From: an uncultured virus (IMG/VR IMGVR_UViG_3300031949_000026)
Lineage: Duplodnaviria > Heunggongvirae > Uroviricota > Caudoviricetes
Reading direction: 5' to 3' (one strand)
Length of the DNA: 20,000 bases
Virus record (IMG/VR): IMGVR_UViG_3300031949_000026
A model generated the notes under the pieces. The model was given only the letters and a program-made list of their open reading frames with translations, searched no databases and had not been told where the DNA came from. Positions 377-17,925 of the stretch are shown here, piece after piece (positions within the stretch are counted from its first letter, which is position 1; the number at the start of each line of letters is the position of its first letter). Position numbers and translations under genes: made by a program.

Positions 377-386
377 GATCTTCTCC

Positions 387-1727: not shown

Positions 1728-1739
1728 GATTCTTTCTCC

Positions 1740-2722: not shown

Positions 2723-2730
2723 GGAACCTC

Positions 2731-3418: not shown

Positions 3419-3436
3419 GATGCACTTTGCCTCCCC

Positions 3437-3736: not shown

Positions 3737-3739
3737 ATC

Positions 3740-4438: not shown

Positions 4439-4441
4439 GTC

Positions 4442-4738
4442 CTACCCGTTCGGAGCTTCCTGGGGTCCGCTGAAGGTGGCGATGGCCGGGACCTTGGCCT
4501 TGAGCACGTCGAGGCGTGCCTGGATCTCGGCCTTGACCTTCGTCTCGGCGTCGATCATCCGGGCGGTCGGGTCCGCGCCCACGGCGGGGCCGGGCATCAT
4601 GCCCCGGAACTCCGCCGTGAAGTTGTGGCCGCCCGTGATCTGCTCGTCGGTCGCCCCGGAGTAGGCGAAGACTTCCCCGACGACGCCCGTGCGTCGGTCG
4701 CGGGCGAGCGTGATGTTGACGTGGAGCCGTTCGGCCAC
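4442..4738 (-). CDS. Hypothetical protein, 98 aa
   Basis: GAGGAGG SD before GTG; tightly packed. Confidence 0.8.
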   Translation of the reverse strand: MAERLHVNITLARDRRTGVVGEVFAYSGATDEQITGGHNFTAEFRGMMPGPAVGADPTARMIDAETKVKAEIQARLDVLKAKVPAIATFSGPQEAPNG

Positions 4739-4750
4739 AGTATCCTCCTC

Positions 4751-5671: not shown

Positions 5672-5674
5672 GGT

Positions 5675-6079
5675 CTAATCCACCTCGAACTGAATGGAGG
5701 CCGAGGTCGCGATCCCGGCGACCTCTTCCACTTCGACGGCCGCGATCGACCCGCCGATTCCGCCGTAGCTGATCGACGAGAAACGCCCGAGGATGATCCC
5801 CGCGCCCGCCGGGCCGCCGACTTCCCGGACCCGGATGAGCGAGCCCGCGGGTCCCGTGTTCTGGATCGTCATCCGGTTCGTGTTCGCGGGCGGAACGGTG
5901 AGCGGAACCGTCGCACCGATCCCGACCGCGACGTCCGCGGAGGTGTCGATGACCGTCCCCGGCGAGATGTTCGAGATCACGCCCGAGACGACGAGGGGGT
6001 TCGCGGCCGTCCCTTGCACGACCGCGTTCTCGTCGTGCAGGACCACCGGGAACAGGTGGGGCTTGAGCGGAGCAGGCAT
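5675..6079 (-). CDS. Small beta-rich structural protein (penton/spike-base candidate), 134 aa
   Basis: GGAG SD; beta pattern RMTIQNTG..LIRV..GIIL. The role is inferred from its position after the capsid candidates. Confidence 0.6.
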   Translation of the reverse strand: MPAPLKPHLFPVVLHDENAVVQGTAANPLVVSGVISNISPGTVIDTSADVAVGIGATVPLTVPPANTNRMTIQNTGPAGSLIRVREVGGPAGAGIILGRFSSISYGGIGGSIAAVEVEEVAGIATSASIQFEVD

Positions 6080-6091
6080 CCATCGTCTCCG

Positions 6092-6874
6092 TTAGAGTTG
6101 GAGGTCTCCCGTGGCCCATTCCGCGGCTCCCTGCGGCGCGGAAGCCCAATACTGGTAGAAGGCCAGGACCCCGCGGATCGTGACCGTGACGCCGCTTTTG
6201 TTCTCGACGAGCATCTGGAGCCGCGAGCGTCCGCGGACGCCGAACTGGAGCCCGTTAGAGAGCAAGCACCACGGGATTTCGACCGAGGCGGGAAGAACCG
6301 TCGTCCGGCCGGACTGGACCGGCGTCGAGCCGCCGTAAGCCGTGGGCGTCTGGTCATCGAAGATCGGGATGATGTCGGCCCGGCCCGCGACGTTGTTGCG
6401 GGCGTTGGCCGCCTGGAGCCAGAATTCCAGTTGGCAGTTCATGAGCGGCGCGAGCGGCGCGAGATCCAGACCGAAGCCCGTCACGATCGCGCGCTGGCGG
6501 TCTTCGATCAGCCGGTCGAAGATGACGGCCGTCGCGCCGGGCGCAACCTGGAGGCCGCACTTCGACTTGATGAGCGGCTTCGAGAAGAAAGGCGGCTCGT
6601 TGAACGCGGGCTTCTTGACGAAGAAAATGAGCGGCTTCTTGAGTTCCGACGCGAAGCGGCAGAAGAGGTCGTCCATCTTCTGCTGATCGGCGGGGTCCTT
6701 CGTGTTCGGCCCGCAATTGGGATCGAACACGACGTCCTTCGGGCGAGGTTCGCCCTGTCCGTAGTCCCGCCAGCCCTCGAAGAAGTATTCCTCTTCGTGA
6801 GGGTTTCCCATGCCGCCGCGACCCGGCGGGCGCGGAGGCGGCCCTCCTCGACGGGGAGGCTGTTTAGGAGACAT
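6092..6874 (-). CDS. Candidate jelly-roll minor capsid protein, 260 aa, with a Pro/Arg-rich N-terminal arm ending GGMGNP
   Basis: C-terminal strands (RLQMLVENKSGVTVTIRGVLAFYQY) parallel the strand pattern ending both halves of the 307-aa protein. Confidence 0.55.
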   Translation of the reverse strand: MSPKQPPRRGGPPPRPPGRGGMGNPHEEEYFFEGWRDYGQGEPRPKDVVFDPNCGPNTKDPADQQKMDDLFCRFASELKKPLIFFVKKPAFNEPPFFSKPLIKSKCGLQVAPGATAVIFDRLIEDRQRAIVTGFGLDLAPLAPLMNCQLEFWLQAANARNNVAGRADIIPIFDDQTPTAYGGSTPVQSGRTTVLPASVEIPWCLLSNGLQFGVRGRSRLQMLVENKSGVTVTIRGVLAFYQYWASAPQGAAEWATGDLQL

Positions 6875-7787
6875 AGCTGACCTTGCGGCCTCCGAAGATG
6901 GGCTTCACCGTGTTCGGATTCACCGTGTCGAGGTTGTCGATGTCGAGTTGCACCTTGAGCGACCGGCGGATCATCCAGGAGGTCGCCCACCGCGCCGGGA
7001 AGATGCCGCCCGAACCGCCGACGCCGCCGCCCGCGACGGTCGGCTGGTGCGCGCCGAAGAGAAGGGACGAATGGAGCTTGTCGCCCGTGAGCGCGCGGTC
7101 GTTCTGGCCGTCGCGGATGCGGCAGCGGAACGCGGCCGAGGACTGCGCCGTGAGCTTGAAACACTCGAAGTCCGCGTTGTCCGGAATCGTCATGAAGTTC
7201 GGATCGTCCGTCGCGCCCGCCGGGAGGACGATCTCTTCGTCGGTCGTGAGGAGGTAGGCGTAGGTCCGTTCGCGGCGCTCGATGTACTCCCAGACCTCCT
7301 TCTTGATCTGCCCCGGGGCCTGATTCGGGTAGAACTTGATCCCGCCCAGGACGAGTTCGACCTTCCGCTCGTTCACGAGGTCCTGATTCCGGAACGTGAT
7401 GTTGAGCGACTGGACCGGCGGGATGAAGATCGTCTCCGGGAGGACGTAGGGGCGGCCCGCGTCCCCGGAGCAGGCGAGAAGGGGGATGGGGCGCGGGGAG
7501 AACTGGATGCGCTTCCCCGGGTGCTCCAGAAGGAAGTCGATGTCGTAGGTCGTGACCGGCACATCCGCGTCGTCGTAGACGACGGTCTTGATGTAGAAGA
7601 CCTCGATCGGACCGTCGTACTGCGCGGTGAGCGGAAACGGGCCGCGCCGCTCGCCCGGCGCGAGCGTGACGACCTGATTCGGCTTCGACACCGACAACTC
7701 GAACGGCTGGACCCAATCCTTCGCCGGATTGAGGTAGGTGCGACCCTGCTTGTCGCGAAGGAACGTCGGAACCTGCGCCCAACTCAT
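6864..7787 (-). CDS. Candidate double jelly-roll capsid protein, 307 aa (two internally duplicated beta domains)
   Basis: Halves align by eye: VTLAPG/IVLPAG; DGPIEVFYI/NADFECFKL; SLNITFRNQDLVNERKVELVLGGIKF/KVQLDIDNLDTVNPNTVKPIFGGRKV. Confidence 0.6.
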   Translation of the reverse strand: MSWAQVPTFLRDKQGRTYLNPAKDWVQPFELSVSKPNQVVTLAPGERRGPFPLTAQYDGPIEVFYIKTVVYDDADVPVTTYDIDFLLEHPGKRIQFSPRPIPLLACSGDAGRPYVLPETIFIPPVQSLNITFRNQDLVNERKVELVLGGIKFYPNQAPGQIKKEVWEYIERRERTYAYLLTTDEEIVLPAGATDDPNFMTIPDNADFECFKLTAQSSAAFRCRIRDGQNDRALTGDKLHSSLLFGAHQPTVAGGGVGGSGGIFPARWATSWMIRRSLKVQLDIDNLDTVNPNTVKPIFGGRKVSYVS

Positions 7788-7937
7788 CGTATCTCCCTTC
7801 CTGAACCGCCTTGGTAGAGGAAGGCGTGCGGCCGACTGTGGCCGCCTGCCGTCCGGGACCTACTCTTTCAGGTGCATCAGGGGGCGGCCCCAACAAGAGG
7901 GGCCGCCCGGAGTTGCGCCTGGACCGGCGAAGGACGA
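7788..7937 (-). promoter_or_regulatory. Structured intergenic RNA region (multiple hairpins, SD-sequestering stem)
   Basis: 10-bp perfect stem at 7882-7908, a GCGGCC/GGCCGC stem near 7827-7845, and a CCTTCCT/AGGAAGG pair overlapping the SD of the 307-aa gene. Confidence 0.5.
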
Positions 7938-8576
7938 CTAGACGCCCTTGTACCGGATGCCCCGGATGAACCACCGGAAGAGGAGGTTTCCCGTGATGCC
8001 CGCGAGCCCCGAGGGGAAGCTGATCTTCACCTGATAGGGCTCGGTCGAGTTGATGTGGAGCGCCCTGCCGCCCACGTCGAAGCGGTAGAGGTTGTCGGAG
8101 ATGCCCCACCCGATGTGCGGCGCGTCGGTCGCGCCCAGGCCCTCGGTGTCCACGCCGGAGGGCACGTCCTCGACCGGGATCGTGAGGAACTTCGTGTCCT
8201 GGCCGAAGATGATCTCCGAGAGCGCGGCGGCCATGACGAGCGTGAAGTTCCCGACCGAGACGGTCTTGGACGTGAGGCTGCCCCAGAGCCGGGCGTTGAA
8301 GCCGTAGACGTCGAAGCTCAGGGGGGTGCCGAGCGATCCCGCCTGGGTCTGGTTCGAGTGGATGAACGTCTTCGACGTCGCGCCGTCGTTGAGGTTCTGG
8401 CCCACCGGCTTCGAGTACAGGGTGAACTCCCTGTTCGGGGTCGCCGCCAGGATGACTTCCGAGTCGTACAGCGGCTCCTTGTACGACCGGACGATCGCGG
8501 CGGGCACCCCCTTCGTGATCTTGTAGTAGGGGTGGACCACCTGGATCGGCTGCTGCGAGCCGTTCGGCGGAGGCAT
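7938..8576 (-). CDS. Candidate single jelly-roll major capsid protein, 212 aa
   Basis: Strong AAAGGAG SD; beta-rich sequence (EPLYDS...PVGQ..KT..SNQTQAGSLG.P.SFDVYG...LLFRWFIRGIRY); flanked by stable hairpins. The fold is inferred. Confidence 0.55.
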   Translation of the reverse strand: MPPPNGSQQPIQVVHPYYKITKGVPAAIVRSYKEPLYDSEVILAATPNREFTLYSKPVGQNLNDGATSKTFIHSNQTQAGSLGTPLSFDVYGFNARLWGSLTSKTVSVGNFTLVMAAALSEIIFGQDTKFLTIPVEDVPSGVDTEGLGATDAPHIGWGISDNLYRFDVGGRALHINSTEPYQVKISFPSGLAGITGNLLFRWFIRGIRYKGV

Positions 8577-8619
8577 CGCATTCTCCTTTCACCACGCCAT
8601 TTCCGGGTCGAGGTCAACT

Positions 8620-8758
8620 AGACCTCAAGGGGGCTCTCGCCCGCCTGTCATATTTCCCGTGGGACGGACTGGCGTACTTGTCCGACTCCCTTTCGGGGCT
8701 CGACGCACGAGCCGCGGAAGGGAGGCCCTGGAGGGTTTCCCCTCCAGGGCTCCCGGGA
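8620..8758 (-). promoter_or_regulatory. Structured intergenic RNA with GNRA-capped hairpins
   Basis: On the minus strand: GCCCTGGAGGG-GAAA-CCCTCCAGGGC (8725-8750), CCC-GAAA-GGG (about 8688-8697) and GGGC-GAGA-GCCC (about 8631-8642). Confidence 0.5.
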
Positions 8759-8761
8759 TCG

Positions 8762-9868
8762 CTAGAACCGCTCCGGCATCGACGACCGGGCGAACTCGTC
8801 GAAGGCTTCTCCGATCCCCGAGGGCTGCATCTCGACCCGATCCGTCTGGGTTTCGGTGAGATACGCGCCCATCGTGGCGTCTTCGCCTTCGCGAGCCGTC
8901 AGGAACGTCTCCGCCCCCGCGGGCGTGAGGTACGTCTCCATGATTCCCGCGGGCTGGATGTACTCGATCATCCCCTCGGCTCCGGCGGCCGGGAGATACT
9001 CCTGCACACCTCCGCCGCCGCGGAGTTCCTTGAGGACTTCCTTCTCGATCGCCTTGCGGAACTCCTCCGTCTCGGGCGCTTCGCCCAGAGTCGGGATGAA
9101 CTCCTTCGCGCTATCGGGGAGCGCCTCGGAGAGCACCTGCCAGAGGGTCGCGAGCAAGCCGCCCGCCAGGAACCGGGTCGTCATGTTCCGGTTCTTGGTG
9201 GCGATGCCCATGAACGCCGTTCCGAGGATCGTCGAGCCGAGCATCGTCCCGACGCGGCCGATGCCCGATTCCCCGAGCGACGGGATCACCTTCTTGTAGA
9301 GCAGACGGCCGCCCACGGCGACCCCGCCGAAGCCCAGACCCGTGTGGAACAGGGCTTCGAGCGTGTCCATCGAGAAGGCGTCCTGGAGCGCCGCCTTGAT
9401 CGCGCCGATCGGATCGGCCGACAGACGGACCGCCCTCGCCGGGTTCCGCCGGTAGTACCGGCGGCGCGGGTTGTGCCGGGCGTAGCGGCGGCGACGGCGC
9501 GGCGCGTTGCCCGGGTTGTGCCGGACCCGCCGCCGACGCCGGTAGCTCCGCGGGAAGCGGTAGCCCCTGATCTGTCCGCGACGGCGGCCCTTCCTGCGGC
9601 GCTTGGCGTACTTCGTGATCTTCCTCCAGCGGCGGCCGACCTTGACGAAGCCGCTCGGATTCCGGCTCCGGCGACGACGCCGGACCGTGCCCTTGGACCG
9701 CCGCGAAACAAACCGGCCGCTCGCGGAGCGGGCGGTCCGACGCCGCCTGACGCGACGGCGCGTGATGGTTTTCGCCATCTTGATCCTCCTTGCCCGTCGT
9801 GCGGGCGACTTGCGAACCGACCGGGGAACATCCCCGACCGGGTTTGCGAAAATCAATGCTCCGATCAT
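8762..9868 (-). CDS. Arg-rich putative DNA-condensing core/membrane protein, 368 aa
   Basis: N-terminal about 140 aa are extremely Arg-rich with repeated NP, followed by hydrophobic helices and C-terminal (E/T)Y(L/I)xPAG repeats. Confidence 0.75.
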   Translation of the reverse strand: MIGALIFANPVGDVPRSVRKSPARRARRIKMAKTITRRRVRRRRTARSASGRFVSRRSKGTVRRRRRSRNPSGFVKVGRRWRKITKYAKRRRKGRRRGQIRGYRFPRSYRRRRRVRHNPGNAPRRRRRYARHNPRRRYYRRNPARAVRLSADPIGAIKAALQDAFSMDTLEALFHTGLGFGGVAVGGRLLYKKVIPSLGESGIGRVGTMLGSTILGTAFMGIATKNRNMTTRFLAGGLLATLWQVLSEALPDSAKEFIPTLGEAPETEEFRKAIEKEVLKELRGGGGVQEYLPAAGAEGMIEYIQPAGIMETYLTPAGAETFLTAREGEDATMGAYLTETQTDRVEMQPSGIGEAFDEFARSSMPERF

Positions 9869-9871
9869 TTG

Positions 9872-12565
9872 CTACCCCCGCATCCAGTCCCCGGTCTTCT
9901 GACCGGGACCCATGACCTTGACGATCACCTTCCCGCCGCTCGCGGCGAGGACCGGAACCGGGCGGGGACGGCCGGAGCCGTCGCCCCACTCGTGCCGGTA
10001 CATATGCCGCCCCTTCCGGGAGCCCTTCGGCGGCTTGTACATCGTCTCGGGACTGTCGCCGTAGTGGGCGAACGAGGTCAACATCTCGATCTTCTTCGCG
10101 GAGCCGATCGGCAGCGTCTTCCAGATGACGAAATGGGGCTTCTTGTTCGCCTTCGTCTGGAGCCGCTCGGCCTCCTCGAACTGCCGCAGAAGTTCCGGGT
10201 TCCCGAGCTTCCGCACCCAGGCGCGGGCGCGCTCGATCGGAATCTTCTGGCCCTCGCGGAACGGGATGCGGACCGAGCCGGGATTCCCGACGACCCGCTT
10301 GGTCTGCTTCGTGACGGTCTCCGTGACCCGGACCGGCTTCCCGGCGCGGCGCGGATTCGAGCGGGAATGGTTCTCCTGCCACGAACGCATGAGCGCGCCC
10401 CGCGCGGAGTCGGTGAGACCCGCCCACGACGGGGCCGCCGCGAGCGCCCAGGCGTAGTCGTCCGGAAACCCGGCGAACTCAAGCGCCGCGTGCCGCTGAC
10501 GGCGCGTGAGCGAGGGCCACTTCCGGTCGATCGGCGGGTTTGCGAGGAGCACGGTCTGGAGGAGCGGGTTCGGCCGGACGGATTCCGGTCCATACTTGCG
10601 GATCACGTCCTCGGCCATCGCCGCGCGTCCCGTGTAGAAGCCTCGACGCTCTCCACGGAAACTCCGAGCACGATAAGCGTCGTTCGCGGCATCGGTCGCA
10701 AGCTGACCGCTTTCCCCGCGTGTAAGAGGGTTCCCGCGGGTCCATCCTCCTCCGCCCTTCTGGATATGAGAGATGGCCCTCTTCACGATCGCAGGCTTCG
10801 CGATGGTGAGCACTTCCCCGTCCCTCGCCTGCGCCCAGACGAAGGCGTTCCGAAGCAGCGAGGCGACCTTTCCTTCCAGGCCGCCCGGAACCTTGTAGGC
10901 GCGGACCGATCCATTCGGAATCGGCTGTCCGTATTCGCCGCGCTTGGGCTTGTAGATACCGACCTCTCCGAGAATTTTCGTCTTCTTCGTGAGAAGGGTC
11001 GAAGAACCCATCGCACGGACCGACGACATGAGGAGGAAGACCGGCCGCCAGCCGGTCGTCACCGAGACCGTGCCGCTCGCGACGTGACCGAAGTCGTCCA
11101 CCCAGATTCGCTTCCCGTTTTCGTAGTAGGGAATGAAGCGTGGATCGAGTTCGGAGTCGTCGAACTTCGATCCGTGCTGCGCCTTCGCGCGCGCGAGGAG
11201 ATCCTGATACGATCGACGCTCCCGGCCGGAGGCATAAGGATTGTCGCAGGTCGAAGGGTTCGAGCAGCAATTCTCCCGCGCCGGAACCCGGTAGCCCGCC
11301 TTGCGCGCCATCGAGTAGGCGATCGCGATCGCCTGCTGCTGCGGGTAGCCCTCACGAACGAGCATCCCGATCTTCCCGGAGATGAAGCTCTGCGCGTCGG
11401 CGCTCGCCGGGTTCCCGCGCGCGCCGGTCTTGCTCGCGGCGTACCCGCGGACGAAGCACCACGCCTCCTTGAGGCCGCGCGCGGTGTAGATGCCGTCGCC
11501 CCCGTGGTAGTCGGTCGGCTTCGTGAAGAAGCGGTAGCGCGTCATGCCGTCGCCGGGAGCCCAGGTCTCGATGTGGAGCCCGAGCGACTTCGCAAACTCG
11601 TCGAGCCCCCTACGACCCTCGCCGGGAGCGTTGCGGAACACCGCGGCTTCCGCCCGCTTGATCGTCGCCCCCTGGCGCATATCGAGAGGTCCGAACTCGG
11701 CCACCCCATCGGCGTAGCCGTAGGCGCGTCCTTTATAGTGGGCGGCGAGCCGACCGCTACGCTGTTGACCGGCGGAGACCATCGAGCCCAGCGCCATCGT
11801 GAGCGCCCGATCCGCCTCACGGCGCGTGAGCGGATTCGAGACCGGGCCGATCAGCCGGTCGTAGTTCCCGAGTTCCGCTTCGGCCTCGAAGCTGTCGCGG
11901 AACATTCTGGCTGCGACCTCCCGGGTCGCCCTGTTGAACATGGTGTCGATCCGGGGAATGTCGTGGGGACGCTCCGAGGAGACGACGTACTCTTTGATGT
12001 ACTTCTTCGCTCCGCTCTCCATGAGGTACATGAAGAGCGTGACGGCCTTCTCCCGATCGTAAACGCCCTTGCGCCGCTTGAGCATGAGGTTCTTGACGAT
12101 CGGAATGAACTGCTGACGATAGAGATCCGCGTCGTTCTCGATGAAGATTGCAAGCTCCCGAGCGGCGTCGGCGTCGGCCGGACCGGAGGGCGCGTTGTTG
12201 AAGGCGAAGACGTTCTTACGCGCCTTACCGTTCGGCCATGCGAAATCCGCGTTCGGCTCGGGGCTGCCTTCGTTGTTGAAGGCGAAAATGTTCCGGCGCG
12301 CGCCGTTCGGCTTCGCGATCAGGCCCATTTCCTCGGCATAGCCGATGACGGACCGCTTCAACTCCACACCACGCTTGAAGAATCCATCCCCGAACATCTG
12401 ACGGGCGTCGTCGTCCCACCACTCCGCGATCGTCCTCTGACCTCTCTTTTTGTCGCTGATACGGATGTGCAGCCGATCGCGCTCCTCCCAGACATTGACA
12501 TCGACCTCCGCCCGAGTGAGGAGACGGCGCGGGTTATTGAAGGCGAAGACGTTTTTCCGGCTCAT
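9872..12565 (-). CDS. Large modular NP-punctuated protein (putative virion core/cargo polyprotein), about 897 aa
   Basis: ATG at 12565 preferred over the track start at 12601 because of a GGAGG SD and ATGA overlap with the upstream stop. Contains many NP/NAP motifs and internal repeats. Confidence 0.8.
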   Translation of the reverse strand: MSRKNVFAFNNPRRLLTRAEVDVNVWEERDRLHIRISDKKRGQRTIAEWWDDDARQMFGDGFFKRGVELKRSVIGYAEEMGLIAKPNGARRNIFAFNNEGSPEPNADFAWPNGKARKNVFAFNNAPSGPADADAARELAIFIENDADLYRQQFIPIVKNLMLKRRKGVYDREKAVTLFMYLMESGAKKYIKEYVVSSERPHDIPRIDTMFNRATREVAARMFRDSFEAEAELGNYDRLIGPVSNPLTRREADRALTMALGSMVSAGQQRSGRLAAHYKGRAYGYADGVAEFGPLDMRQGATIKRAEAAVFRNAPGEGRRGLDEFAKSLGLHIETWAPGDGMTRYRFFTKPTDYHGGDGIYTARGLKEAWCFVRGYAASKTGARGNPASADAQSFISGKIGMLVREGYPQQQAIAIAYSMARKAGYRVPARENCCSNPSTCDNPYASGRERRSYQDLLARAKAQHGSKFDDSELDPRFIPYYENGKRIWVDDFGHVASGTVSVTTGWRPVFLLMSSVRAMGSSTLLTKKTKILGEVGIYKPKRGEYGQPIPNGSVRAYKVPGGLEGKVASLLRNAFVWAQARDGEVLTIAKPAIVKRAISHIQKGGGGWTRGNPLTRGESGQLATDAANDAYRARSFRGERRGFYTGRAAMAEDVIRKYGPESVRPNPLLQTVLLANPPIDRKWPSLTRRQRHAALEFAGFPDDYAWALAAAPSWAGLTDSARGALMRSWQENHSRSNPRRAGKPVRVTETVTKQTKRVVGNPGSVRIPFREGQKIPIERARAWVRKLGNPELLRQFEEAERLQTKANKKPHFVIWKTLPIGSAKKIEMLTSFAHYGDSPETMYKPPKGSRKGRHMYRHEWGDGSGRPRPVPVLAASGGKVIVKVMGPGQKTGDWMRG
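12194..12560 (-). repeat. Three copies of an R-[KR]-N-[VI]-F-A-F-N-N coding repeat
   Basis: gtt(g/a)ttgaaggcgaa(g/a)a..tt at about 12195, 12272 and 12533. Confidence 0.9.
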
Positions 12566-12870
12566 GCCGCGACCCTCCGACGCATCGGGACATAGGGCCA
12601 ACCCGCCGGGTTCCGGCGCGCGCCGCGGGACGCGAAGTGCGAGCCGATCGCGGCGGCGACCGCCGCGCCCGCGACGAGGGCCAGGACGACCGCCAGCCCG
12701 AACTTCGGGAGCACGTCTTCGACCATGACTTTCCTGATCGTCGGCTCCGCCGCTTCCGAGGCCGACGCCACGATCTCCTTCATGCGGGGCAGGAGCGCCG
12801 CGGTGATCTTGTCCGCGATCGGCATGATCGCGGCCGAGAGCGCATCCTGTCCCATGCCGTAGTGCTGCAC
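12562..12870 (-). CDS. Small membrane protein, 102 aa (MQHYGMGQDALSAA...TM...ARRNPAG)
   Basis: Real 3' part of the track's 475-aa ORF. GTG at 12870 with GGAG SD, 2 nt after the upstream stop; one TM segment. Confidence 0.8.
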   Translation of the reverse strand: MQHYGMGQDALSAAIMPIADKITAALLPRMKEIVASASEAAEPTIRKVMVEDVLPKFGLAVVLALVAGAAVAAAIGSHFASRGARRNPAGWPYVPMRRRVAA

Positions 12871-12872
12871 GT

Positions 12873-14384
12873 CTATCTCCGGCCCCTGCTCCTGCTCCTG
12901 GACTTGAAGAGGACGTAGCCCGCGGCGAGGGCCGTCACACCCGAGCCGAGCCAGAACCAGGGACTCGACAGGATCGACTTCGACGAGACGGGCATCATCT
13001 GGACCTGTGCGACCGGAGCGCCCGCGACCTTGTTCGTGGCGTTGGCGACGGCCGCCGCGTACTTCGCCTCGACCTTCGCCGTCACGACGGCTCCGGCGAC
13101 CTTCGCCGCCTCCGCGAGCGCCCCCGTCACCGTGTTGAGGACGGAGTTCCCGGCGTCGGTCGCCGCCTTCGCGGGCTCCGAATCGAGGCTCGTGACGAGC
13201 GTGGACTTCCACTCCTCGCCTTCCGCCCCCATCCCCGCGGGGACCCGCGTCGGGTTCTGCATGACGACCACCGCGCGGCGGCGGATTCCCATCGGCTGTT
13301 CCATCACGATCCTCACTTGTCTCTCGGGGGTCCCGGGCTGCTGCTCCTGGACGGTGGGACCGGCCTTCCAGAACCGGCGCACGTCGCGTCCGAGGTTCCC
13401 GTTCCAGGGAGAGCCCGGCGGATACGGCTGGTTTTCGATCTTGGTGTAGGGCTGGTCCCCTCTCCTGTAGTAGGGAGGGCCGTGATCGTCCGGCTGCCCC
13501 TTGAGGTGGACGATCCGGCGCGACGGGTTTTTCCCCTTCGACGCCTTGATGTACTTGAGACCCGGCTGGAGATCCGACTCGGGAATCTCCGTGTCGTGCG
13601 GCGGGAGAAGCTGCATGTTCGCCGCGTCGGAGACGGGGATGAGTCCCTCGGCCCCGTCCGGCCCGAACGACTTGGGGATGCCGTAGCCGTACTCCTCGGA
13701 CGGATAGAACTCTTCCTGTGGATTGGACGTGACGACATCCTCGACCTCCTGGCCGAGGCCGTTCCGGTGGAAGCCGTTGAGCCCGCTCATGCCCTTCCCT
13801 CCGACCACATCTTCGATCGGTCCCTCGGGCCAACGCGCGAAAAGTTCCGGAGCGACAGGCGGCCTCCAACCGGGCTTCGCGCTGGCCGTCGAAGGATCGA
13901 GCGCGTACCAGTCGCCGTTGACTCGGGCCGCGACCCAGACGTGGGAAAACTCGTCGGGGCGCTGGAGATCGACCTTGGCCGTCTCCCACGCATACTGAAA
14001 TCCGAGAATGCCCAGGAGCGCCGCCGTGTAGACGCCCGCGATCGTATCGCAGTCCCCCACGAAAAGACCGGGGCCTTTGTACTTCTTCGCCACCCGAGCT
14101 TCGATGATCGGCTGCATCGCGGCGATCGGATGCTCGATCTTCTCGATCTGGAACGGATCACGCTGGAAGATGCCGTGTTTCTTGATCCACCAAAAGATCG
14201 CGTCGAGGACGGCCGTCGTGGACGCGCGCCGGTCGCTCGGAACCTGTAGCCTGATCCAGGTCGCGATCCGCTGCATCGTCTTGTCGAGCTTCCCGAGCGC
14301 GACGAGCCGGTGCATCTTATCCAGGGTCTTTTTCGTCCCCCGGACGCCGCGCTCAAGACCTTCGATCGTGGACTGTTCGCGCAC
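12873..14384 (-). CDS. Transglutaminase-like cysteine protease (Cys-His-Asp) with C-terminal membrane anchor, 503 aa
   Basis: GDCD (Cys about 14050), FSHVWV (His about 13942) and WYALDPS (Asp about 13897) match the transglutaminase-like core. C-terminus is PWFWLGSGVTALAAGYVLF plus a basic tail. Start codon uncertain (no SD). Confidence 0.85.
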   Translation of the reverse strand: MREQSTIEGLERGVRGTKKTLDKMHRLVALGKLDKTMQRIATWIRLQVPSDRRASTTAVLDAIFWWIKKHGIFQRDPFQIEKIEHPIAAMQPIIEARVAKKYKGPGLFVGDCDTIAGVYTAALLGILGFQYAWETAKVDLQRPDEFSHVWVAARVNGDWYALDPSTASAKPGWRPPVAPELFARWPEGPIEDVVGGKGMSGLNGFHRNGLGQEVEDVVTSNPQEEFYPSEEYGYGIPKSFGPDGAEGLIPVSDAANMQLLPPHDTEIPESDLQPGLKYIKASKGKNPSRRIVHLKGQPDDHGPPYYRRGDQPYTKIENQPYPPGSPWNGNLGRDVRRFWKAGPTVQEQQPGTPERQVRIVMEQPMGIRRRAVVVMQNPTRVPAGMGAEGEEWKSTLVTSLDSEPAKAATDAGNSVLNTVTGALAEAAKVAGAVVTAKVEAKYAAAVANATNKVAGAPVAQVQMMPVSSKSILSSPWFWLGSGVTALAAGYVLFKSRSRSRGRR

Positions 14385-14395
14385 ACGTTAGTCCG

Positions 14396-14434
14396 AAAAA
14401 AAAGAGGACCCCGTGCAATGAGCACGAGGCCCCC
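14396..14434 (-). terminator. Intrinsic (Rho-independent) terminator
   Basis: Minus strand GGGGGCCTCGTGC-TCATT-GCACGGGGTCCTC followed by T8; 13-bp stem with three G-U pairs. Confidence 0.75.
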
Positions 14435-14516
14435 AAGAAGAAGAAGTCGAGTGGCGATAGGACAGAGCCATACGGTTCCTCGTTGCAAGGCCGTACAGCC
14501 CCTTGAGCGGGCTCTT

Positions 14517-14720
14517 CTATGCCTTCCGGGTATTGCCGATCACGCTGACGGTCGGGACGCTGCTCTTGAACCGAACCTCAAGGATCGCACCGCACTTTCC
14601 GGAGTCTCGGCGGTTTCCCTTGCAGTTCACTTGAGCCGTCCCCTCATACGCCCCGCGCATCACCCAACTCCCGCACATCGGGCACAGGATGACGACGCCT
14701 TCGACCGTCTCTTCGGCCAT
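14517..14720 (-). CDS. Small zinc-ribbon protein, Com-like, 67 aa
   Basis: ILCPMCGSWVMR...VNCKG...KCGAILEV has four Cys in an arrangement similar to the Mu Com family, with an expanded second knuckle. Confidence 0.65.
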   Translation of the reverse strand: MAEETVEGVVILCPMCGSWVMRGAYEGTAQVNCKGNRRDSGKCGAILEVRFKSSVPTVSVIGNTRKA

Positions 14721-14793
14721 TTAAGCAAAAAGCCGCGAGTTTCCTCGCGGCCCTTCCATCCCTGAACGGATGCTGCTGCCGTCTTCGATGCTA

Positions 14794-14825
14794 ACTATAA
14801 CACAGAAACGACGATCAGGTGTCAA
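14794..14825 (-). promoter_or_regulatory. Sigma70-type promoter: TTGACA ... TG-T-TATAGT (extended -10), 20-bp spacer
   Basis: tgtcaa at 14820-14825 and actata at 14794-14799; AT-rich upstream; located in an intergenic gap. Confidence 0.65.
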
Positions 14826-14875
14826 GTATTAAATGATGATGGTGTCCTAGCTTGAATCCTACCGTTGAAAGATCC

Positions 14876-15154
14876 CTAGGGAGCTTTGTAGCGTTTCTTT
14901 ACTTCGTCTAGGATGAAAGTCTTATTGGACCCTTCCGCATCGACCATATCGACGATCCCGTTTTCGTGAAGGGCATCGACCCAGGCTTTGTCGCGTTTCT
15001 CGATTACTTCTTTACTGTTCTTAGAGATCGCTTCAAGGGCACCGTCCAGCGCCTTCCTCGCCTTCCACATCTCTACGCTGGCGTGGATGGCGCAAGCTGA
15101 CGGAGGGTGGGGAACATCGTCCTTGTACTCCATGTCGCAAGTCGGACAGTTCAT
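14876..15154 (-). CDS. Hypothetical protein, 92 aa (N-terminal CxxC...H...C)
   Basis: Fills the space between repeat copies; lower GC; stop TAG lies within the repeat palindrome. Confidence 0.7.
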   Translation of the reverse strand: MNCPTCDMEYKDDVPHPPSACAIHASVEMWKARKALDGALEAISKNSKEVIEKRDKAWVDALHENGIVDMVDAEGSNKTFILDEVKKRYKAP

Positions 15155-15161
15155 GGCAATC

Positions 15162-15350
15162 CTACCGTTGGAAGAGTTTTGCTGAAAGCGCCTTCGCGCC
15201 AGCCTGCGTGATCCTCACTGGACCAAAGATCCACCAGCGCCGACGGGCCCACCCACGACGAACAAGCTCCTCGGCAACCGTCACGAACCTTTCGCAAGGA
15301 GAGTCCCAAGTCCCCTTCTGCACGAGGTAGAGGAGGTAGGTCATCATCAT
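15162..15350 (-). CDS. Hypothetical protein, 62 aa (winged-helix-like ELVRRGW...RITQAG pattern)
   Basis: Fills the space between repeat copies; stop TAG lies within the repeat. Confidence 0.6.
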   Translation of the reverse strand: MMMTYLLYLVQKGTWDSPCERFVTVAEELVRRGWARRRWWIFGPVRITQAGAKALSAKLFQR

Positions 15351-15374
15351 GCCGTTAATCGTACCGTTGATAGA

Positions 15375-15629
15375 TTAGCTGGGAACAGCCAGCGTCGCCT
15401 GAAGATCCATCCAGACCTTCACGCAACGCCACCTCCCAAACTCTTCGGGTTTCTCGTCGTACAGGGCGTCGATGGCTTTCTTTAGCGCGGCCTTAGCATT
15501 GAAGACGATGCCGTGCCATCTCCACGACGTCCCATCGATCGGACGCCCTTGTTCGTTGAACTTCATGAAGTCCACGACCCAGAAGGAGTCGGGCCAGTCC
15601 TCCGAGTCTGCCAGCGTCTCTTCCTTCAT
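15375..15629 (-). CDS. Hypothetical protein, 84 aa
   Basis: GAGAGG SD; fills the space between repeat copies. Confidence 0.7.
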   Translation of the reverse strand: MKEETLADSEDWPDSFWVVDFMKFNEQGRPIDGTSWRWHGIVFNAKAALKKAIDALYDEKPEEFGRWRCVKVWMDLQATLAVPS

Positions 15630-15684
15630 CTCGACCCTCTCAATCTTACGTTGGATAGATCCCTAGGGACTACTCCAATCACAA

Positions 15685-15984
15685 TCACGTTCCCGGCCTC
15701 CGGTAGAGCGATCCCGCCCGGATCGCCTGCGCGAACTTCGGGAGATCCTGCCGGAGCGCCTGCATCTCCATCTGGAGCGCCCCGTTGACTTCGATCGTAT
15801 CGTCGAGCGCGGAGATGAGTCCCTCGTCCTTCCGCGTGATCGCGTCGAAGAGAAGCGCCGTCATCTCCGTCTGCTTCTGGACGGCCTCCGTAAGCTTGGA
15901 GACGGACTTCTGGAGACTGTCGAGGCACCTCAAAAACTGGCCGAAGCGTTCCTGCTGCTTCCGAGAGACCTCCTCTTCCGTCAT
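15685..15984 (-). CDS. Coiled-coil protein, 99 aa (MTEEEVSRKQQE...)
   Basis: ATG at 15984 overlaps the upstream stop (ATGA); heptad pattern. Confidence 0.75.
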   Translation of the reverse strand: MTEEEVSRKQQERFGQFLRCLDSLQKSVSKLTEAVQKQTEMTALLFDAITRKDEGLISALDDTIEVNGALQMEMQALRQDLPKFAQAIRAGSLYRRPGT

Positions 15985-16688
15985 CGACAATGCCCCCTGT
16001 ACAGGAACCCGAGTTCGTCGCCGCGGAAGCCGTCGAAGTACGCCACGCGGACACCGCTCGTGTCGGCGCAGTAATTGAAGGAGACCTGATCGCGCTTCGA
16101 CCCGGAAGCAAGTTCCCGCCACCAATAGGCGTTGAACTCCGCCACCTTCGGCGTATGCCGTCGAAGGAGAATCCCGGTCTCCGCAAGACCGGCGTTCGCG
16201 GGGTAGCCGCGACCGCGATACTTTTCCAATTGGGAGCTAACGACCCCAGGATCGTCCTTCCCACAGTCGATCGCGAACTGGCCGCCTTCGTAGGTGCAGG
16301 AGAACATGAAGTGCCTGCACACGGCGATGTCGGCCTCCGCAAGATATTTTTTCACGAGACCCGGGACGTCCACCTTGTCGAGCGTGAACGCGGCATCGAC
16401 CCAGAGGGAATACTCGTAACGGTGGACCGGGTTGCACGGGAGATGGGAATTCAGCTTCCAGAAGCGGGCGCGGCGCGTGTCGTCGAGGCTTCCCCACGAA
16501 ACGTCGGGGGGAATGACCGCGGGCACGAAGCCGTTCGCCCGGCCGTGGAACCAGCGGGGCGGCCCCCCGGGGAAGTCCGTCGCCAGGAACACGTCGTAGT
16601 CTCCCGGCTTCGGACGGTCGTAATGATCGTGAGCGCCGAACAAGGCCGTGTACACGGCGATTTTATTTTTGAGGATGCCGTAGCTCAT
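15981..16688 (-). CDS. DUF616/TOD1-MUCI70-like glycosyltransferase, 235 aa
   Basis: Motifs VYTALFGAHD, RFWKLNSH, YEYSLWVDA, ETGILLRRH and WWRE...RDQVSFNY are characteristic of this family. Confidence 0.8.
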   Translation of the reverse strand: MSYGILKNKIAVYTALFGAHDHYDRPKPGDYDVFLATDFPGGPPRWFHGRANGFVPAVIPPDVSWGSLDDTRRARFWKLNSHLPCNPVHRYEYSLWVDAAFTLDKVDVPGLVKKYLAEADIAVCRHFMFSCTYEGGQFAIDCGKDDPGVVSSQLEKYRGRGYPANAGLAETGILLRRHTPKVAEFNAYWWRELASGSKRDQVSFNYCADTSGVRVAYFDGFRGDELGFLYRGHCR

Positions 16689-17233
16689 CGGACCGGCGCG
16701 ACGTCGATCTTGGAGAGATCGACATCACCGAACTCCTTCTCCTCGTTGAACTTCCGAGCCCGCAAGAGGACGCCGGGGAAGCCCGGCGCGTCCTCCCGAA
16801 GATCCTGGATTCTCATGTCGGCAAAGATCCGAAGAAAATCCGGAACCGTGAAACGCCAGTAGTCGTGCGGATACCCGTGGTACGGGAAGCCGGGACCCCG
16901 TGTGGTCACGACGAGCAGACCGCCCGGCGCGGTCATCTCCTTCATCACGCGAACAGCGGTGCGCCAGTCCTCGGCGTGCTCCAGCATCTCGGTTGAGATC
17001 ACGACGTCGAAGGGCTCGGGAAAGGCTTCAGGAATGCGCTCAACCGAGAGGACGACATCGACGCCCTTCCCCGGCGTCATATCAACGCCGGTCCAGGACG
17101 CGGGACCGTGGCCCGCGAGTGCATCCCGCGGAGATCCGTTCACGTCTTGAGAGCCGATCTCCAGGACGCTCTTTCCCGCGATGTCCTCGCGGCGGATCTC
17201 GTGGCGAAGGAAGTCCATCACGCTCGAATGCAT
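16685..17233 (-). CDS. Class I SAM-dependent methyltransferase, 182 aa
   Basis: VLEIGSQDVNG, GVDMTPGKGVD, FDVVISTEMLEH and YHGYPHDYWRFT. Start MHSSV at 17233 with AAGGAG SD. Confidence 0.88.
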   Translation of the reverse strand: MHSSVMDFLRHEIRREDIAGKSVLEIGSQDVNGSPRDALAGHGPASWTGVDMTPGKGVDVVLSVERIPEAFPEPFDVVISTEMLEHAEDWRTAVRVMKEMTAPGGLLVVTTRGPGFPYHGYPHDYWRFTVPDFLRIFADMRIQDLREDAPGFPGVLLRARKFNEEKEFGDVDLSKIDVAPVR

Positions 17234-17925
17234 TGTCTGTTCTCCTTGGAGAGGTCCTCGACAGCCTTCTCGATGAACTCGTTCGTGATCGCGCCGGAGT
17301 AGAGTTCGTTCGGCCCCGGAGACAACGGCGTGAGGCAATGGCTCTCGTCGAGCTTGAATTGGACGCCCGGATAGTCCTCGACTCCATAAAAGGTCTCGTC
17401 GATCTTCTTCCAGTCGCGACGGAAAAGCGCGGAGTGCTTGAACCAAAAGAAGGTCCCTGCGAAGCACCATCCGCTCCTCGGAGCGACGTGCTGGTAGCGG
17501 AGGGAACCGACGACCCCCGCCTTCTTGAGCTTCTGATCGACGAGTTCCGGAAATCGAAGAGCCGCCTCGTACATGAGCCAGGACCAGTTCAGAATCGGCA
17601 CGAGGTCCTTCCCATGCCGCGTGACACCTTTCGCGTGCGCGTAGAAGGTGGCCTCATCCTCCTTTTCTGACTTGACGAGTCCAAGCAGATCGACAAAGTG
17701 AGCGGCTTCACCGAGCTTCTCGTCGTTTTCGACAAACCTCACCTCCGCTTCGAGCGGGGAGATCGTCCGCAGGACGACGTTCGGGTTCTCCGTCTTCTCG
17801 TCGATCGAGACGGTGATGATCTTCCGGCCGGTGAAGACGCGACGGTGCTCAAGAAGACGTGGAACGTGCCACGCCCACGAAGTCCCGCGCACCGGATAGC
17901 AGTAGAAGAGGAGATTCCGGACCAT
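17218..17925 (-). CDS. Putative glycosyltransferase-like protein, 235 aa
   Basis: Start MVRNLL at 17925 with GAGG SD; FYAHAKGVT and FAGTFFWF motifs seen in glycan-synthesis proteins; adjacent to the methyltransferase and GT genes. Confidence 0.6.
   Translation of the reverse strand: MVRNLLFYCYPVRGTSWAWHVPRLLEHRRVFTGRKIITVSIDEKTENPNVVLRTISPLEAEVRFVENDEKLGEAAHFVDLLGLVKSEKEDEATFYAHAKGVTRHGKDLVPILNWSWLMYEAALRFPELVDQKLKKAGVVGSLRYQHVAPRSGWCFAGTFFWFKHSALFRRDWKKIDETFYGVEDYPGVQFKLDESHCLTPLSPGPNELYSGAITNEFIEKAVEDLSKENRQCIRA

What the first reader, a model, noticed from the sequence alone, without database searches (positions are those of the whole stretch)
14855..15669. Mini gene-cassette array: three small AT-richer ORFs each bracketed by a ~20-bp conserved site
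Seen: four direct repeats sit at the gene junctions. On the coding strand they read GATCTATCCAACG-TAAGATT, AATCTATCAACGGTACGATT, ACTCTTCCAACGGTAGGATT and GATCTTTCAACGGTAGGATT. Stop codons fall in or next to the repeat and the next ATG follows within 3-12 nt. The repeat has weak inverted arms (ATC...GAT) around an asymmetric CAACG core. The YCAAC near each stop resembles the integron attC R'' box (RYYYAAC), but the sites are far shorter than attC. Inference: these are recombination sites of an integron-like cassette capture/shuffle system in a virus. Alternatively they are repeated operators or translation signals. No recombinase is visible in this window.
Basis: partly seen in the sequence, partly recalled or inferred. 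Interest (0 to 1): 0.8.

Follow-up and report, generated by a model that had tools for sequence, protein, structure and literature searches.

The report
Gene-swapping junction repeats in soil phages
Four short repeats that bracket three tiny genes are local copies of a near-palindromic junction signal, shared by related uncultured soil phages, at which those phages have swapped small accessory genes.

Summary
Four direct repeats lie at 14855-14882, 15158-15185, 15357-15384 and 15642-15669 (4 found, 0.08 expected). They bracket three small minus-strand ORFs.

They are diverged copies of a junction element found in related ~70-kb uncultured phages: CC-TAG-G-TAATCTTC-N6-GAAGAT(A/T)A. I catalogued 37 further copies in eight arrays from six relatives. 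The element closes the upstream frame, often in all three frames, and the next start follows closely. It is co-oriented with the genes, and n+1 copies flank n modules of 1-3 genes.

The closest relative with DNA has four copies at the same locus, with three unrelated ORFs. Other relatives have an empty site there. Between relatives, DNA homology stops and resumes exactly at the elements.

So these are cassette boundaries. This is not an integron: there is no attC structure and no IntI. The element behaves as a double-stranded palindromic site, with weak folding and no compensatory changes. In relatives the first copy of a stand-alone array overlaps a TATAAT -10 box.

The closest analogue is the PeSL "mobile regulatory cassette" of T4-like phages. 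A dedicated site-specific mechanism remains possible, given the 8+6+8 geometry, the conserved spacer classes and the Xer-like recombinases in relatives.

The parts
15642..15669 (-). Junction repeat copy A. On the coding strand it reads TCCCTAGGGATCTATCCAACGTAAGATT. It lies between the conserved coiled-coil gene and the 84-aa ORF.
   Evidence: family D1
15375..15629 (-). Cargo ORF of 84 aa with no family assignment. It has 3 homologues in the 5.8-billion-protein set, at 73-86% identity.
15357..15384 (-). Junction repeat copy B, closest to the canonical form: TAATCTAT-CAACGG-TACGATTA. The TAA stop of the 84-aa ORF overlaps its start.
15162..15350 (-). Cargo ORF of 62 aa with no family assignment. 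13 other proteins match at E<=1e-3 among 1.84 billion representatives.
15158..15185 (-). Junction repeat copy C. The last five codons and the TAG of the 62-aa ORF lie inside it, and the next ATG follows 3 nt after it.
14876..15154 (-). Cargo ORF of 92 aa with an N-terminal CxxC...C..H motif and no family assignment. It has 5 partial homologues covering 49-71% of its length.
14855..14882 (-). Junction repeat copy D, the terminal copy. The TAG of the 92-aa ORF lies in its 5' extension, and no gene follows directly.
15685..15984 (-). Conserved upstream flank: a ~99-aa coiled-coil gene, 64-66% identical to its L125 counterpart. Homology with L125 ends at its stop codon.
14726..14825 (-). Conserved downstream flank. 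It holds a sigma-70-type promoter (TTGACA at 14825-14820, then 17 nt, then TGTTAT at 14802-14797), a short leader, and a GC-rich hairpin with a T-run (14752-14727). It ends just before the ATG of the 67-aa zinc-ribbon gene (14517-14720).
   Evidence: The TTGACA and the hairpin core are invariant in 11 of 11 aligned loci.

Best explanation
The four repeats are diverged local copies of a phage-family-specific junction element. Its canonical form in relatives is CC-TAG-G-TAATCTTC-N6-GAAGAT(A/T)A.

The element works as double-stranded, near-palindromic DNA of the kind a protein dimer binds. It punctuates operons of small accessory genes. It ends the upstream reading frame, the next start follows within 0-30 nt, and n+1 copies flank n modules of 1-3 genes.

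Co-infecting relatives exchange the modules by recombination inside the element. The conserved arms supply the shared sequence, so cargo can differ completely while the boundaries stay the same. The function under selection is probably transcriptional control by a phage-encoded binding protein. In relatives the first copy of a stand-alone array overlaps the promoter's -10 box, and internal copies sit in short intergenic gaps, as stoperators do. Gene shuffling would then be the evolutionary by-product, as with the PeSL cassettes of T4-like phages.

In this window the array sits at the end of a longer operon, just upstream of a conserved promoter-leader-terminator unit.

Shown here: the repeats, their positions relative to stops and starts, conservation across the family, the differing cargo, and breakpoints at the elements. 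Inferred: protein binding, the regulatory role and the recombination route.
For: (1) The repeats are real: 4 sites against 0.08 expected.

(2) L125 shows the same architecture at the same locus. Its four copies start at 1647, 1950, 2208 and 2378 and flank ORFs of 86, 78 and 44 aa. tblastn of the window's three ORFs finds nothing in any of 41 relative loci.

(3) In 10 of the 13 relative loci printed, the coiled-coil gene's stop is followed directly by the conserved promoter and terminator, with no insert. This is the empty site. In 2 of these 10 (L099, L103) the junction is more diverged, and L103 shows no clear TTGACA. Three more loci hold one CxxC ORF there, and L125 holds the array.

(4) The canonical element occurs in arrays in G001 (5 copies), G002 (4+4), G003 (3), G004 (about 14) and G007 (4-5), and nowhere else in those 68-71-kb genomes at <=2 mismatches.

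(5) Position relative to genes:
- 40 of 41 catalogued copies have a stop that closes >=45 open codons within -30..+6 of the element.
- 37 of 41 have a start that opens >=40 codons within -3..+30 after it.
- 28 of 41 carry stops in all three frames, against 42 of 5000 random 48-mers from the same genomes.

(6) Breakpoints:
- G001/G002p homology (83% over 321 bp) ends inside the first element. After that only the elements match (44 nt and 33 nt).
- G001/G007 right-flank homology (77% over 951 bp) starts 1 nt after the last element.
- Window/L125 homology (78% over 317 bp) ends at the coiled-coil gene's stop.

(7) Only one pair of cargo ORFs is homologous between arrays, and the two sit in different intervals.

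(8) Double-stranded DNA rather than a hairpin:
- There are 0 compensatory double changes in 328 arm-pair cells, and A.C (7) and G.T (5) mismatches are similarly frequent.
- The window copies fold at -2.8 to -5.8 kcal/mol, and 68-156 of 200 shuffles fold as well.

(9) In relatives, 6 copies at array starts read TA-TAATC, which gives TATAAT. One of them scores 10/12 as a sigma-70 promoter in a divergent intergenic region. A transcript started there would lack the left arm.

(10) Modules of 2-3 genes have no element between their genes. So the element is a module boundary, not a signal needed at every gene.

(11) PeSLs have the same layout of stop codon, motif and start next to ORFans, with recombination between motifs (PMC2839356, abstract and section 13).
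Against: - No binding protein is identified. A comparison of proteins present or absent across 5 genomes gave no consistent candidate.
- The window copies and most relatives' copies have no sigma-70 promoter. There are 0 promoter-like sites in 14300-16300, and internal copies read GGTAAT, which lacks the key A.
- The stem is AT-rich and is not a terminator, so two of the three defining PeSL components are missing.
- The 6-nt spacers fall into five classes that are identical between phages whose shared proteins are only 27-46% identical. They keep the order GTGGAA > TCGGCA > TTGGTG in 5 of the 5 arrays that hold all three. A plain operator or a mere homology patch does not predict this.
- The shared arms give only 8-15 bp of identity, which is short for ordinary homologous recombination.
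- No population-level evidence of exchange was obtained; reads showed no joints.
- The same-locus comparison rests on one relative, L125, from a genome flagged as unpublished.
Confidence: 0.5

Rival explanations
1. Dedicated site-specific recombination sites. The element would be the core site of a tyrosine recombinase: two inverted binding arms around a 6-bp crossover region. The distinct, conserved spacers would make neighbouring sites incompatible with each other but compatible with the same-type site in a co-infecting relative. Modules would then be exchanged, or inserted as circles, without deleting the array. This would be a viral counterpart of integron cassettes or of Xer-dependent dif modules.
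For: - Geometry is 8+6+8, or 11+6+11 with flanks. The inner arms are conserved and the spacer varies. That matches the 28-bp dif layout described in PMC6449649 (passages).
- Five spacer classes recur unchanged across six phages and keep their order.
- n+1 sites flank n modules.
- Sites are hybrids. The same left flank and left arm is joined to three different spacers (G001, G007, G002p). The right flank 'ACGATTA-tagctgcac' is joined to TCTGCG in G001 and to TTGGTG in G002m.
- G001's first left arm, TAATCGTA, is the complement of its last right arm, TACGATTA.
- The family encodes a 263-aa Xer-like tyrosine recombinase (PF00589, E 1e-14). Homologues lie in G001, G003 and G005 and in G007.
- In G004 a different 309-aa tyrosine recombinase lies inside an array, just after a first-type copy.
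Against: - G005 has the recombinase but no array or comparable repeat.
- The recombinase genes are not next to the arrays in G001, G002 or G003.
- All four window copies share one spacer (CAACGG) in direct orientation. An active recombinase should delete such an arrangement.
- The same left arm joined to different spacers argues against strictly spacer-matched exchange.
- No recombinase lies in the window; the rest of the contig was not available.
- No excision or circle junctions were seen, though coverage was poor.
Confidence: 0.25
2. Pure transcription-control sites of the stoperator type. A phage repressor would bind the first copy to shut the array promoter, and bind internal copies to block elongation. 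Gene turnover at these points would be incidental, because intergenic gaps are the only places where illegitimate joins survive.
For: - Copies lie both at promoters and in short intergenic gaps, and are always co-oriented with transcription.
- Cluster A mycobacteriophage operators and stoperators show the same pattern (PMC9283540, passages).
- The arms are conserved in sequence without covariation.
Against: - Homology resumes within the 22-30 bp of the element itself, not merely somewhere in the gap.
- Intergenic gaps inside multi-gene modules lack the element.
- The sites are confined to arrays rather than spread over the genome.
- No repressor is identified.
- Spacer conservation is not explained.
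Confidence: 0.12
3. RNA-level element. A small hairpin in the polycistronic mRNA would bring the stop and the next start together for termination-reinitiation. Alternatively it would serve as a processing or stability site.
For: - The stop codon lies at the 5' foot of the stem and the ATG at or near the 3' foot (GATAA-ATG in several copies).
- Some downstream genes have no Shine-Dalgarno sequence.
- Window copies C and D have T.G pairs on the coding strand.
Against: - Folding is no better than shuffles for all 4 window copies and for 3 of 4 L125 copies.
- There is no compensatory change. A.C mismatches, which would be G.U on the other strand, are as common as G.T.
- First copies overlap a -10 box, so their transcripts would lack the left arm.
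- Genes inside multi-gene modules manage without the element.
- No Rfam match at E<=1.
Confidence: 0.08
4. Chance similarity, or leftovers of a tandem duplication of one gene together with its junction.
For: The copies are short (20-28 nt) and only 71-82% alike outside the core.
Against: - 0 of 200 shuffles reach 4 matches.
- The three ORFs have no similarity to one another.
- The same element type recurs in six other phages.
Confidence: 0.01

Closest known systems
PeSL (promoter-early stem-loop) mobile regulatory cassettes of T4-like phages (Arbiol et al. 2010, PMC2839356; Comeau et al. 2014, PMC4122927)
   Same: - Both are short conserved motifs between the stop codon of one gene and the SD/start of the next.
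- Both are concentrated in hyperplastic regions next to ORFan genes.
- Differences between relatives (insertions, deletions, replacements) have their ends in the motifs.
- A stem-loop can overlap the -10 box, as in the first copies here.
   Different: - Most copies here, including all four in the window, have no sigma-70 promoter.
- The stem is AT-rich and weak, not a G/C-rich terminator.
- The element is a compact 8+6+8 palindrome with a few conserved spacer classes in a conserved order.
- It carries stop codons in up to three frames.
- The host phages are unrelated ~70-kb soil phages.
- No mini-circles have been shown.
Integron gene cassettes (attI/attC, IntI). Features recalled from general knowledge, not from a call.
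   Same: - Arrays of mostly promoterless, co-oriented small genes.
- n+1 sites for n units.
- Stop codons in or next to the site, with the next start close behind.
- In relatives, a promoter at the first site.
- Cargo differs between relatives.
   Different: - There is no attC: no 57-141-bp R''-L''/L'-R' structure and no extrahelical bases.
- The sites are conserved in sequence rather than in structure.
- There is no integron integrase.
- Modules can hold 2-3 genes.
- The carrier is a virus.
Xer-dependent dif modules (pdif sites) of Acinetobacter plasmids (PMC6449649, passages)
   Same: - Small gene modules are flanked by short sites with conserved inner inverted arms and a 6-bp central region.
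- Several sites occur per replicon.
- The same module can appear in different contexts.
   Different: - The sites here are in direct orientation, not alternating.
- They have no resemblance to a host dif. The element was found in 3 of 401 genomes searched in the presumed host phylum, one of which holds the phage contig itself.
- Any recombinase would be phage-encoded.
Operators/stoperators of Cluster A mycobacteriophages (PMC9283540, passages)
   Same: The sites lie at a promoter and in short intergenic gaps near stops and starts, and are co-oriented with transcription.
   Different: - Stoperators are 13-bp asymmetric sites bound by a monomer, more than twenty per genome and spread throughout it.
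- Here the sites are 22-bp near-palindromes confined to arrays, and they coincide with mosaic breakpoints.

Membership tests
Integron | Integron integrase (IntI, TIGR02249) next to the array | tested here: not met
   0 of 17 window ORFs hit PF00589. The relatives' 263-aa recombinase scores 27 bits against a cutoff of 265 and lies far from the arrays.
Integron | attC sites: 57-141-bp imperfect inverted repeats with R''/L''-L'/R' boxes, conserved in structure rather than sequence (recalled) | tested here: not met
   The element is 22-30 bp with simple 8-bp arms and a 6-nt spacer. It is conserved in sequence, folds weakly, and shows no second pair of boxes.
Integron | Co-oriented cassettes whose content varies between relatives, with boundaries at the sites | tested here: met
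PeSL | A sigma-70-like early promoter in each motif | tested here: not met
   Only 6 of 37 relatives' copies read TATAAT. None of the 4 window copies does, and there are no promoter-like sites in 14300-16300.
PeSL | A stable stem-loop acting as terminator or attenuator | tested here: not met
   The window copies fold at -2.8 to -5.8 kcal/mol with z-scores of -0.5 to +0.7. There is no T-run.
PeSL | Position between stop and SD/start beside ORFans in plastic regions, with the ends of indels and replacements in the motif | tested here: met
dif modules (pdif/Xer) | Site with conserved inner inverted arms and a 6-bp central region | tested here: met
   compared with the PMC6449649 passage
dif modules (pdif/Xer) | Sites resemble the host dif and are used by the host's XerC/XerD | tested here: inconclusive
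   The host is unknown. The element was found in only 3 of 401 genomes of the phylum of the MAG that holds L125, and one of the three is that MAG's phage contig.
dif modules (pdif/Xer) | Modules flanked by inversely oriented sites | tested here: not met
   All copies within an array share one orientation, judged by the 5' CCTAGG flank and the 3' GATAA.
Stoperator system | Many asymmetric sites spread over the whole genome, plus a cognate immunity repressor | tested here: not met
   The sites are near-palindromic and confined to 1-2 arrays per genome. No repressor was identified.

The most novel reading that the evidence does not exclude
These phages carry a virus-borne, site-specific cassette-exchange platform. 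It would consist of a promoter-linked first site followed by an array of 8+6+8 (11+6+11 with flanks) recombinase core sites. Distinct, conserved 6-bp spacers would keep neighbouring sites from deleting one another, yet let co-infecting relatives swap the modules between matching sites. A phage Xer-like tyrosine recombinase would service the sites. This would be a natural form of recombinase-mediated cassette exchange and a viral analogue of integrons and dif modules.
Probability: 0.2. Interest if true: 0.9.

Novelty: new variant of a known kind. Interest (0 to 1): 0.66.

Why it matters
How phages gain and lose their many small ORFan genes is largely unknown outside the T4-like phages. Here a compact, precisely placed junction element marks the breakpoints of gene replacement in an unrelated and otherwise unannotated family of soil phages. 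Its spacer classes are conserved across very divergent genomes. If the element only supplies shared sequence and regulation, it extends the PeSL idea to a new phage group and a new motif design. If it is a true recombinase site, it would be the first integron-like or dif-module-like cassette system in a virus, and a natural set of mutually incompatible recombination sites. In either case the element gives a simple sequence handle for finding accessory-gene hot spots in such metagenomic phage genomes.

Tried and rejected
- **Whole genome:** none is held for the window.
- **Window-specific motif in viral contigs:** 85 loci, each with a single hit, taken as chance. The window's own contig was not among them.
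- **GenBank phages:** no match for 6 kb of DNA or for the 738-aa protein. The canonical element gave only partial hits at E>=0.1.
- **Single-protein scans of viral contigs** with the 674-aa and 503-aa proteins found nothing. An alignment of 34 homologues was needed.
- **Window core motif CAACGGTANGATT:** absent from 41 relative loci, except for one likely chance hit. The relationship appeared only through L125's canonical copies.
- **Reads:** 4 runs were laid, all as contigs.
  - No joints were found.
  - Only X1, which may be the source sample, spans the cassettes.
  - X2-X4 hold a few near-identical 150-220-nt pieces of the flanks at depth 2-7 and nothing over 14867-15739. This is too thin to read as absence.
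  - No RNA holder was listed.
- **Rfam:** no match at E<=1 in 14300-16000.
- **G005:** this complete relative with no array shows no other recurrent hairpin or junction repeat.
- **Cognate protein by presence/absence** across G001, G003, G004, G007 and G005: no consistent candidate.
- **G004's in-array recombinase** is unrelated to the family's 263-aa recombinase.
- **Ideas considered and dropped:**
  - An N4-like hairpin promoter: weak hairpins, an extra terminal copy, and no polymerase identified.
  - A sigma-70 promoter in internal copies: GGTAAT lacks the key A, and there is no -35 box.
  - CRISPR, REP/RAYT and iterons: the spacing and context do not fit.
  - Loop complementarity to the 16S 3' end: judged by eye only and not general.
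Full report
**Observation.** On the minus (coding) strand they read as quoted. A consensus search allowing up to 3 mismatches finds 4 sites in the 20-kb window, all in this region. Shuffles give 0.08 on average, and 0 of 200 reach 4. The repeat finder groups them as one 28-nt family at 14855, 15158, 15357 and 15642. The outer two copies share a longer form that includes TCCCTAGGGATCT.

The repeats bracket three minus-strand ORFs of 84, 62 and 92 aa. Stops lie in or beside three copies, and 15 nt before the fourth. The next ATG follows 12, 6 and 3 nt after copies A, B and C. Copy D is followed by 134 nt without a gene. The region is AT-richer than the rest of the window.

**Context.** No whole genome is held. 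The 17 larger ORFs are almost all without Pfam or PHROG matches. The exceptions are a SAM methyltransferase and a TOD1-like glycosyltransferase just upstream.

The 503-aa protein downstream (12873-14384) has 94 homologues. Many sit on contigs of 64-75 kb. With an alignment of 34 of them I fetched 39 metagenome loci, 2 genome loci and 8 IMG/VR loci. Several of the IMG/VR records are complete, with direct terminal repeats. So the window belongs to a family of ~70-kb uncultured soil phages.

Synteny is conserved across the family: the 674-aa gene, a variable stretch of 0.8-3.5 kb, then the 503-aa gene. Within that stretch a ~100-aa coiled-coil gene and a ~60-aa zinc-ribbon gene recur.

**The same locus in relatives.** The three window ORFs have no tblastn match in any of the 41 loci.

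Of the 13 relative loci printed, 10 show the coiled-coil gene's stop followed directly by the promoter-leader-terminator unit and the zinc-ribbon gene's ATG. The unit is a TTGACA-N17-cAnAAT promoter about 15-25 nt after the stop, then a short leader, then a GC-rich hairpin with a T-run. This is an empty site. Two of the ten (L099, L103) are more diverged, and L103 has no clear TTGACA. Three loci hold one CxxC ORF there, and L125 holds an array.

L125 is the closest relative for which DNA was available (503-aa protein 67% identical). At exactly this place it has four direct repeats flanking three ORFs of 86, 78 and 44 aa that are unrelated to the window's. Its repeats read CC-TAG-G-TAATCTTC-N6/7-GAAGATAAA. 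The last one, TAATCTTC-CAACGAT-AAGATAA, shows the link to the window's CAACGG copies.

L125 comes from a genome that the tool flags as unpublished. The same-locus comparison and the window/L125 breakpoint rest on it.

**A family-wide element.** A scan of viral contigs with the L125 form found it in four family members, at other genome positions and in several copies each. Whole-record scans add more:
- G001: 5 copies.
- G002: 4+4 copies in two divergent arrays.
- G003: 3 copies.
- G004: about 14 copies.
- G007: 4-5 copies.
- G005 (complete): none.
- Three partial records (G006, G008, G009): none.
- G010, a record outside the family fetched through the singleton hit L135: one copy, taken as chance.

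Outside the arrays these genomes have no copy with <=2 mismatches. The element is not in GenBank phages beyond chance fragments. It was found in only 3 of 401 genomes searched in the phylum of L125's MAG, one being that MAG's phage contig.

**Anatomy.** I catalogued 41 copies, 37 in relatives and 4 in the window.
- The arms are TAATCTTC and GAAGAT(A/T)A around a 6-nt spacer.
- Internal copies carry CC(C)TAGG on the 5' side.
- 40 of 41 have a stop that closes a long open frame within -30..+6 of the element. This is a heuristic on my own ORF calls in GC-rich DNA.
- 37 of 41 have a start that opens >=40 codons within -3..+30 after it.
- TAG at -4, TAA at 0 and TAA at +19 fall in three different frames. 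28 of 41 copies have stops in all three frames, against 42 of 5000 random 48-mers. Only 1 of the 4 window copies does.
- Modules between copies hold 1-3 genes, and the junctions inside a module lack the element.
- The arrays have one more copy than modules. The last copy is followed by no gene in the window, L125 and G003. In G004 it lies at a convergence point.

**Hairpin or duplex?** Across 328 arm-pair cells there are 257 Watson-Crick pairs, 59 mismatches, 7 A.C and 5 G.T, with no compensatory double change. One-sided changes that break pairing are tolerated, for example TAATCGTA opposite GAAGATTA. As RNA, the window copies fold no better than shuffles. No Rfam family matches.

Six copies at the start of arrays in relatives read TA-TAATC, which creates TATAAT. 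One of them, in the divergent intergenic region of G002, scores 10/12 as a sigma-70 promoter. A transcript from there would start inside the element. This points to recognition of double-stranded DNA.

The window copies are not of this promoter type. Here the array is read through from the operon upstream.

**Recombination breakpoints.**
- G001 and G002p share an upstream gene (81% aa identity) and 83% DNA identity over 321 bp. That homology ends inside the first element. Beyond it only the elements align (44 nt and 33 nt).
- G001 and G007 share 951 bp (77%) that begin 1 nt after G001's last element.
- G001's left flank matches G002's plus-strand array, and its right flank matches G002's minus-strand array. 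So the arrays are also rearrangement points.
- Window/L125 homology (78% over 317 bp) ends at the coiled-coil gene's stop.

Among cargo ORFs lying between two elements, only one homologous pair was found, and its members sit in different intervals. One further 187-bp DNA match links cargo of G002p and G007.

Cargo with a family assignment includes a C5 DNA methylase, an RNA-ligase-like protein, CspA, ThyX, DUF3310 and a tyrosine recombinase. The rest, including the window's three, are ORFans. The window's three are nevertheless real genes, with a few homologues elsewhere.

**Spacers.** Five spacer classes recur unchanged: TCGGCA, TTGGTG, GTGGAA, TCTGCG and CAACGG. The order GTGGAA > TCGGCA > TTGGTG holds in 5 of the 5 arrays that contain all three. 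TCTGCG and TTGGTG swap places in L125 and G007.

G004 shares identical 22-mers with G001-G003, although their common proteins are mostly 27-46% identical. The same left flank and left arm is joined to three different spacers. One right flank with its right arm is joined to two. So the exchange points lie at the inner edges of the arms.

All four window copies are of the CAACGG class and have degenerate arms.

**Mechanism.** What is shown: the element is a conserved, oriented module boundary at which relatives differ by whole-gene replacements.

What I infer as most likely (0.5): it is a protein-bound palindromic control site, and its conserved arms serve as the crossover patch for modular exchange between co-infecting phages. 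This is the logic described for PeSLs in T4-like phages (PMC2839356, abstract and section 13; PMC4122927, abstract only). The layout of sites at a promoter plus sites in intergenic gaps recalls operators and stoperators (PMC9283540, passages).

The main rival (0.25) is a dedicated site-specific system. In its favour:
- The 8+6+8 geometry resembles a tyrosine-recombinase core site and the dif layout (PMC6449649, passages).
- The spacer classes are conserved.
- The hybrid arms of first and last copies look like the products of an insertion.
- Relatives encode Xer-like recombinases.

Against it:
- G005 has the recombinase without any array.
- The recombinase genes are distant from the arrays in three genomes.
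- The window's four same-spacer direct repeats should be unstable under an active recombinase.
- One arm is joined to several different spacers.

The RNA-hairpin rival (0.08) and the purely regulatory rival (0.12) are weaker, for the reasons given under each.

**Family membership.** It is not an integron. There is no attC architecture and no IntI. It is not a PeSL in the strict sense, because most copies lack the promoter and the terminator stem. It is not a dif module, because the sites are direct and unlike any host site found.

**Verdict.** It is a new variant of the known idea that conserved junction motifs mediate modular shuffling in phage hyperplastic regions. There is a realistic chance that it is a true recombinase-based cassette system.

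**Limits.**
- Only 20 kb of the window's contig could be read.
- The closest relatives (69-84% identical) could not be fetched.
- ORF calls in relatives come from simple scripts.
- There is no expression or population evidence.

Noticed in passing
window 14726-14825 (minus strand); L086, L087, L089-L093, L095, L099, L125 at the equivalent place: A conserved unit lies just before the ATG of the ~60-aa zinc-ribbon gene. It has a TTGACA-N17-cAnAAT promoter, a ~60-nt leader and a GCCGCG...CGCGGC hairpin with a T-run. The leader holds a small stem that changes on both sides between relatives (GCTC/GAGC, GCCC/GGGC, ATCC/GGAT). TTGACA and the hairpin core are invariant in 11 of 11 loci. The layout recalls a late promoter with a short terminated transcript that needs antitermination, or a small RNA gene.
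   Followed up: partly
window 14404-14434 (minus strand): A second strong terminator-like hairpin (13 pairs, then T8) lies between the 67-aa zinc-ribbon gene and the start of the 503-aa gene. The small gene is therefore flanked by terminators on both sides.
   Followed up: no
window 12873-14384 (minus strand): The 503-aa protein is conserved across the family. C112, H148 and D163 are invariant in 34 sequences. Two distant homologues carry a transglutaminase-core domain, PF01841. It is likely a transglutaminase-like cysteine protease with a C-terminal membrane anchor.
   Followed up: partly
G001 66100-66138, G002 53640-53676 and 47728-47760, G007 about 64460-64500; also right after the last element in G001 (68119-68145), G002 (46445-46420) and G007: A second conserved motif, CTGCACA...(A/T)TCTGTGCCGTA, is an inverted repeat around the -35 region. 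It accompanies the first-type copies and also begins the right flank of the arrays. It may be the operator of another regulator.
   Followed up: no
G002 65429-66220 (L157:5429-6220, minus); homologues in G001, G003, G005, G007: A conserved 263-aa tyrosine recombinase has an N-terminal Cys-rich region and only a catalytic domain. It sits next to the methyltransferase that lies at 16685-17470 in the window. Its best models are of XerA type, far below their cutoffs. Its site and role are unknown.
   Followed up: partly
G002 46446-47727 (minus) and 53677-55009 (plus): G002 has two arrays in opposite orientation around a 6-kb block with back-to-back promoters. G001's single array has the left flank of one and the right flank of the other. 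This implies an inversion or split at the elements.
   Followed up: partly
window 93-12595 (plus strand): Large ORFs of 738, 1201 and 1305 aa, and their neighbours, have no Pfam or PHROG match at E<=0.01. They are nevertheless conserved in the family. They are probably virion or injected proteins of an undescribed phage group.
   Followed up: no
G004 28900-37830 (L147): The most divergent carrier (GC 0.57, few shared genes) has the densest set of elements, about 14 in 9 kb in two convergent arrays that share one perfectly palindromic copy. Its cargo includes a C5 DNA methylase, an RNA-ligase-like protein, CspA, ThyX and a tyrosine recombinase.
   Followed up: partly
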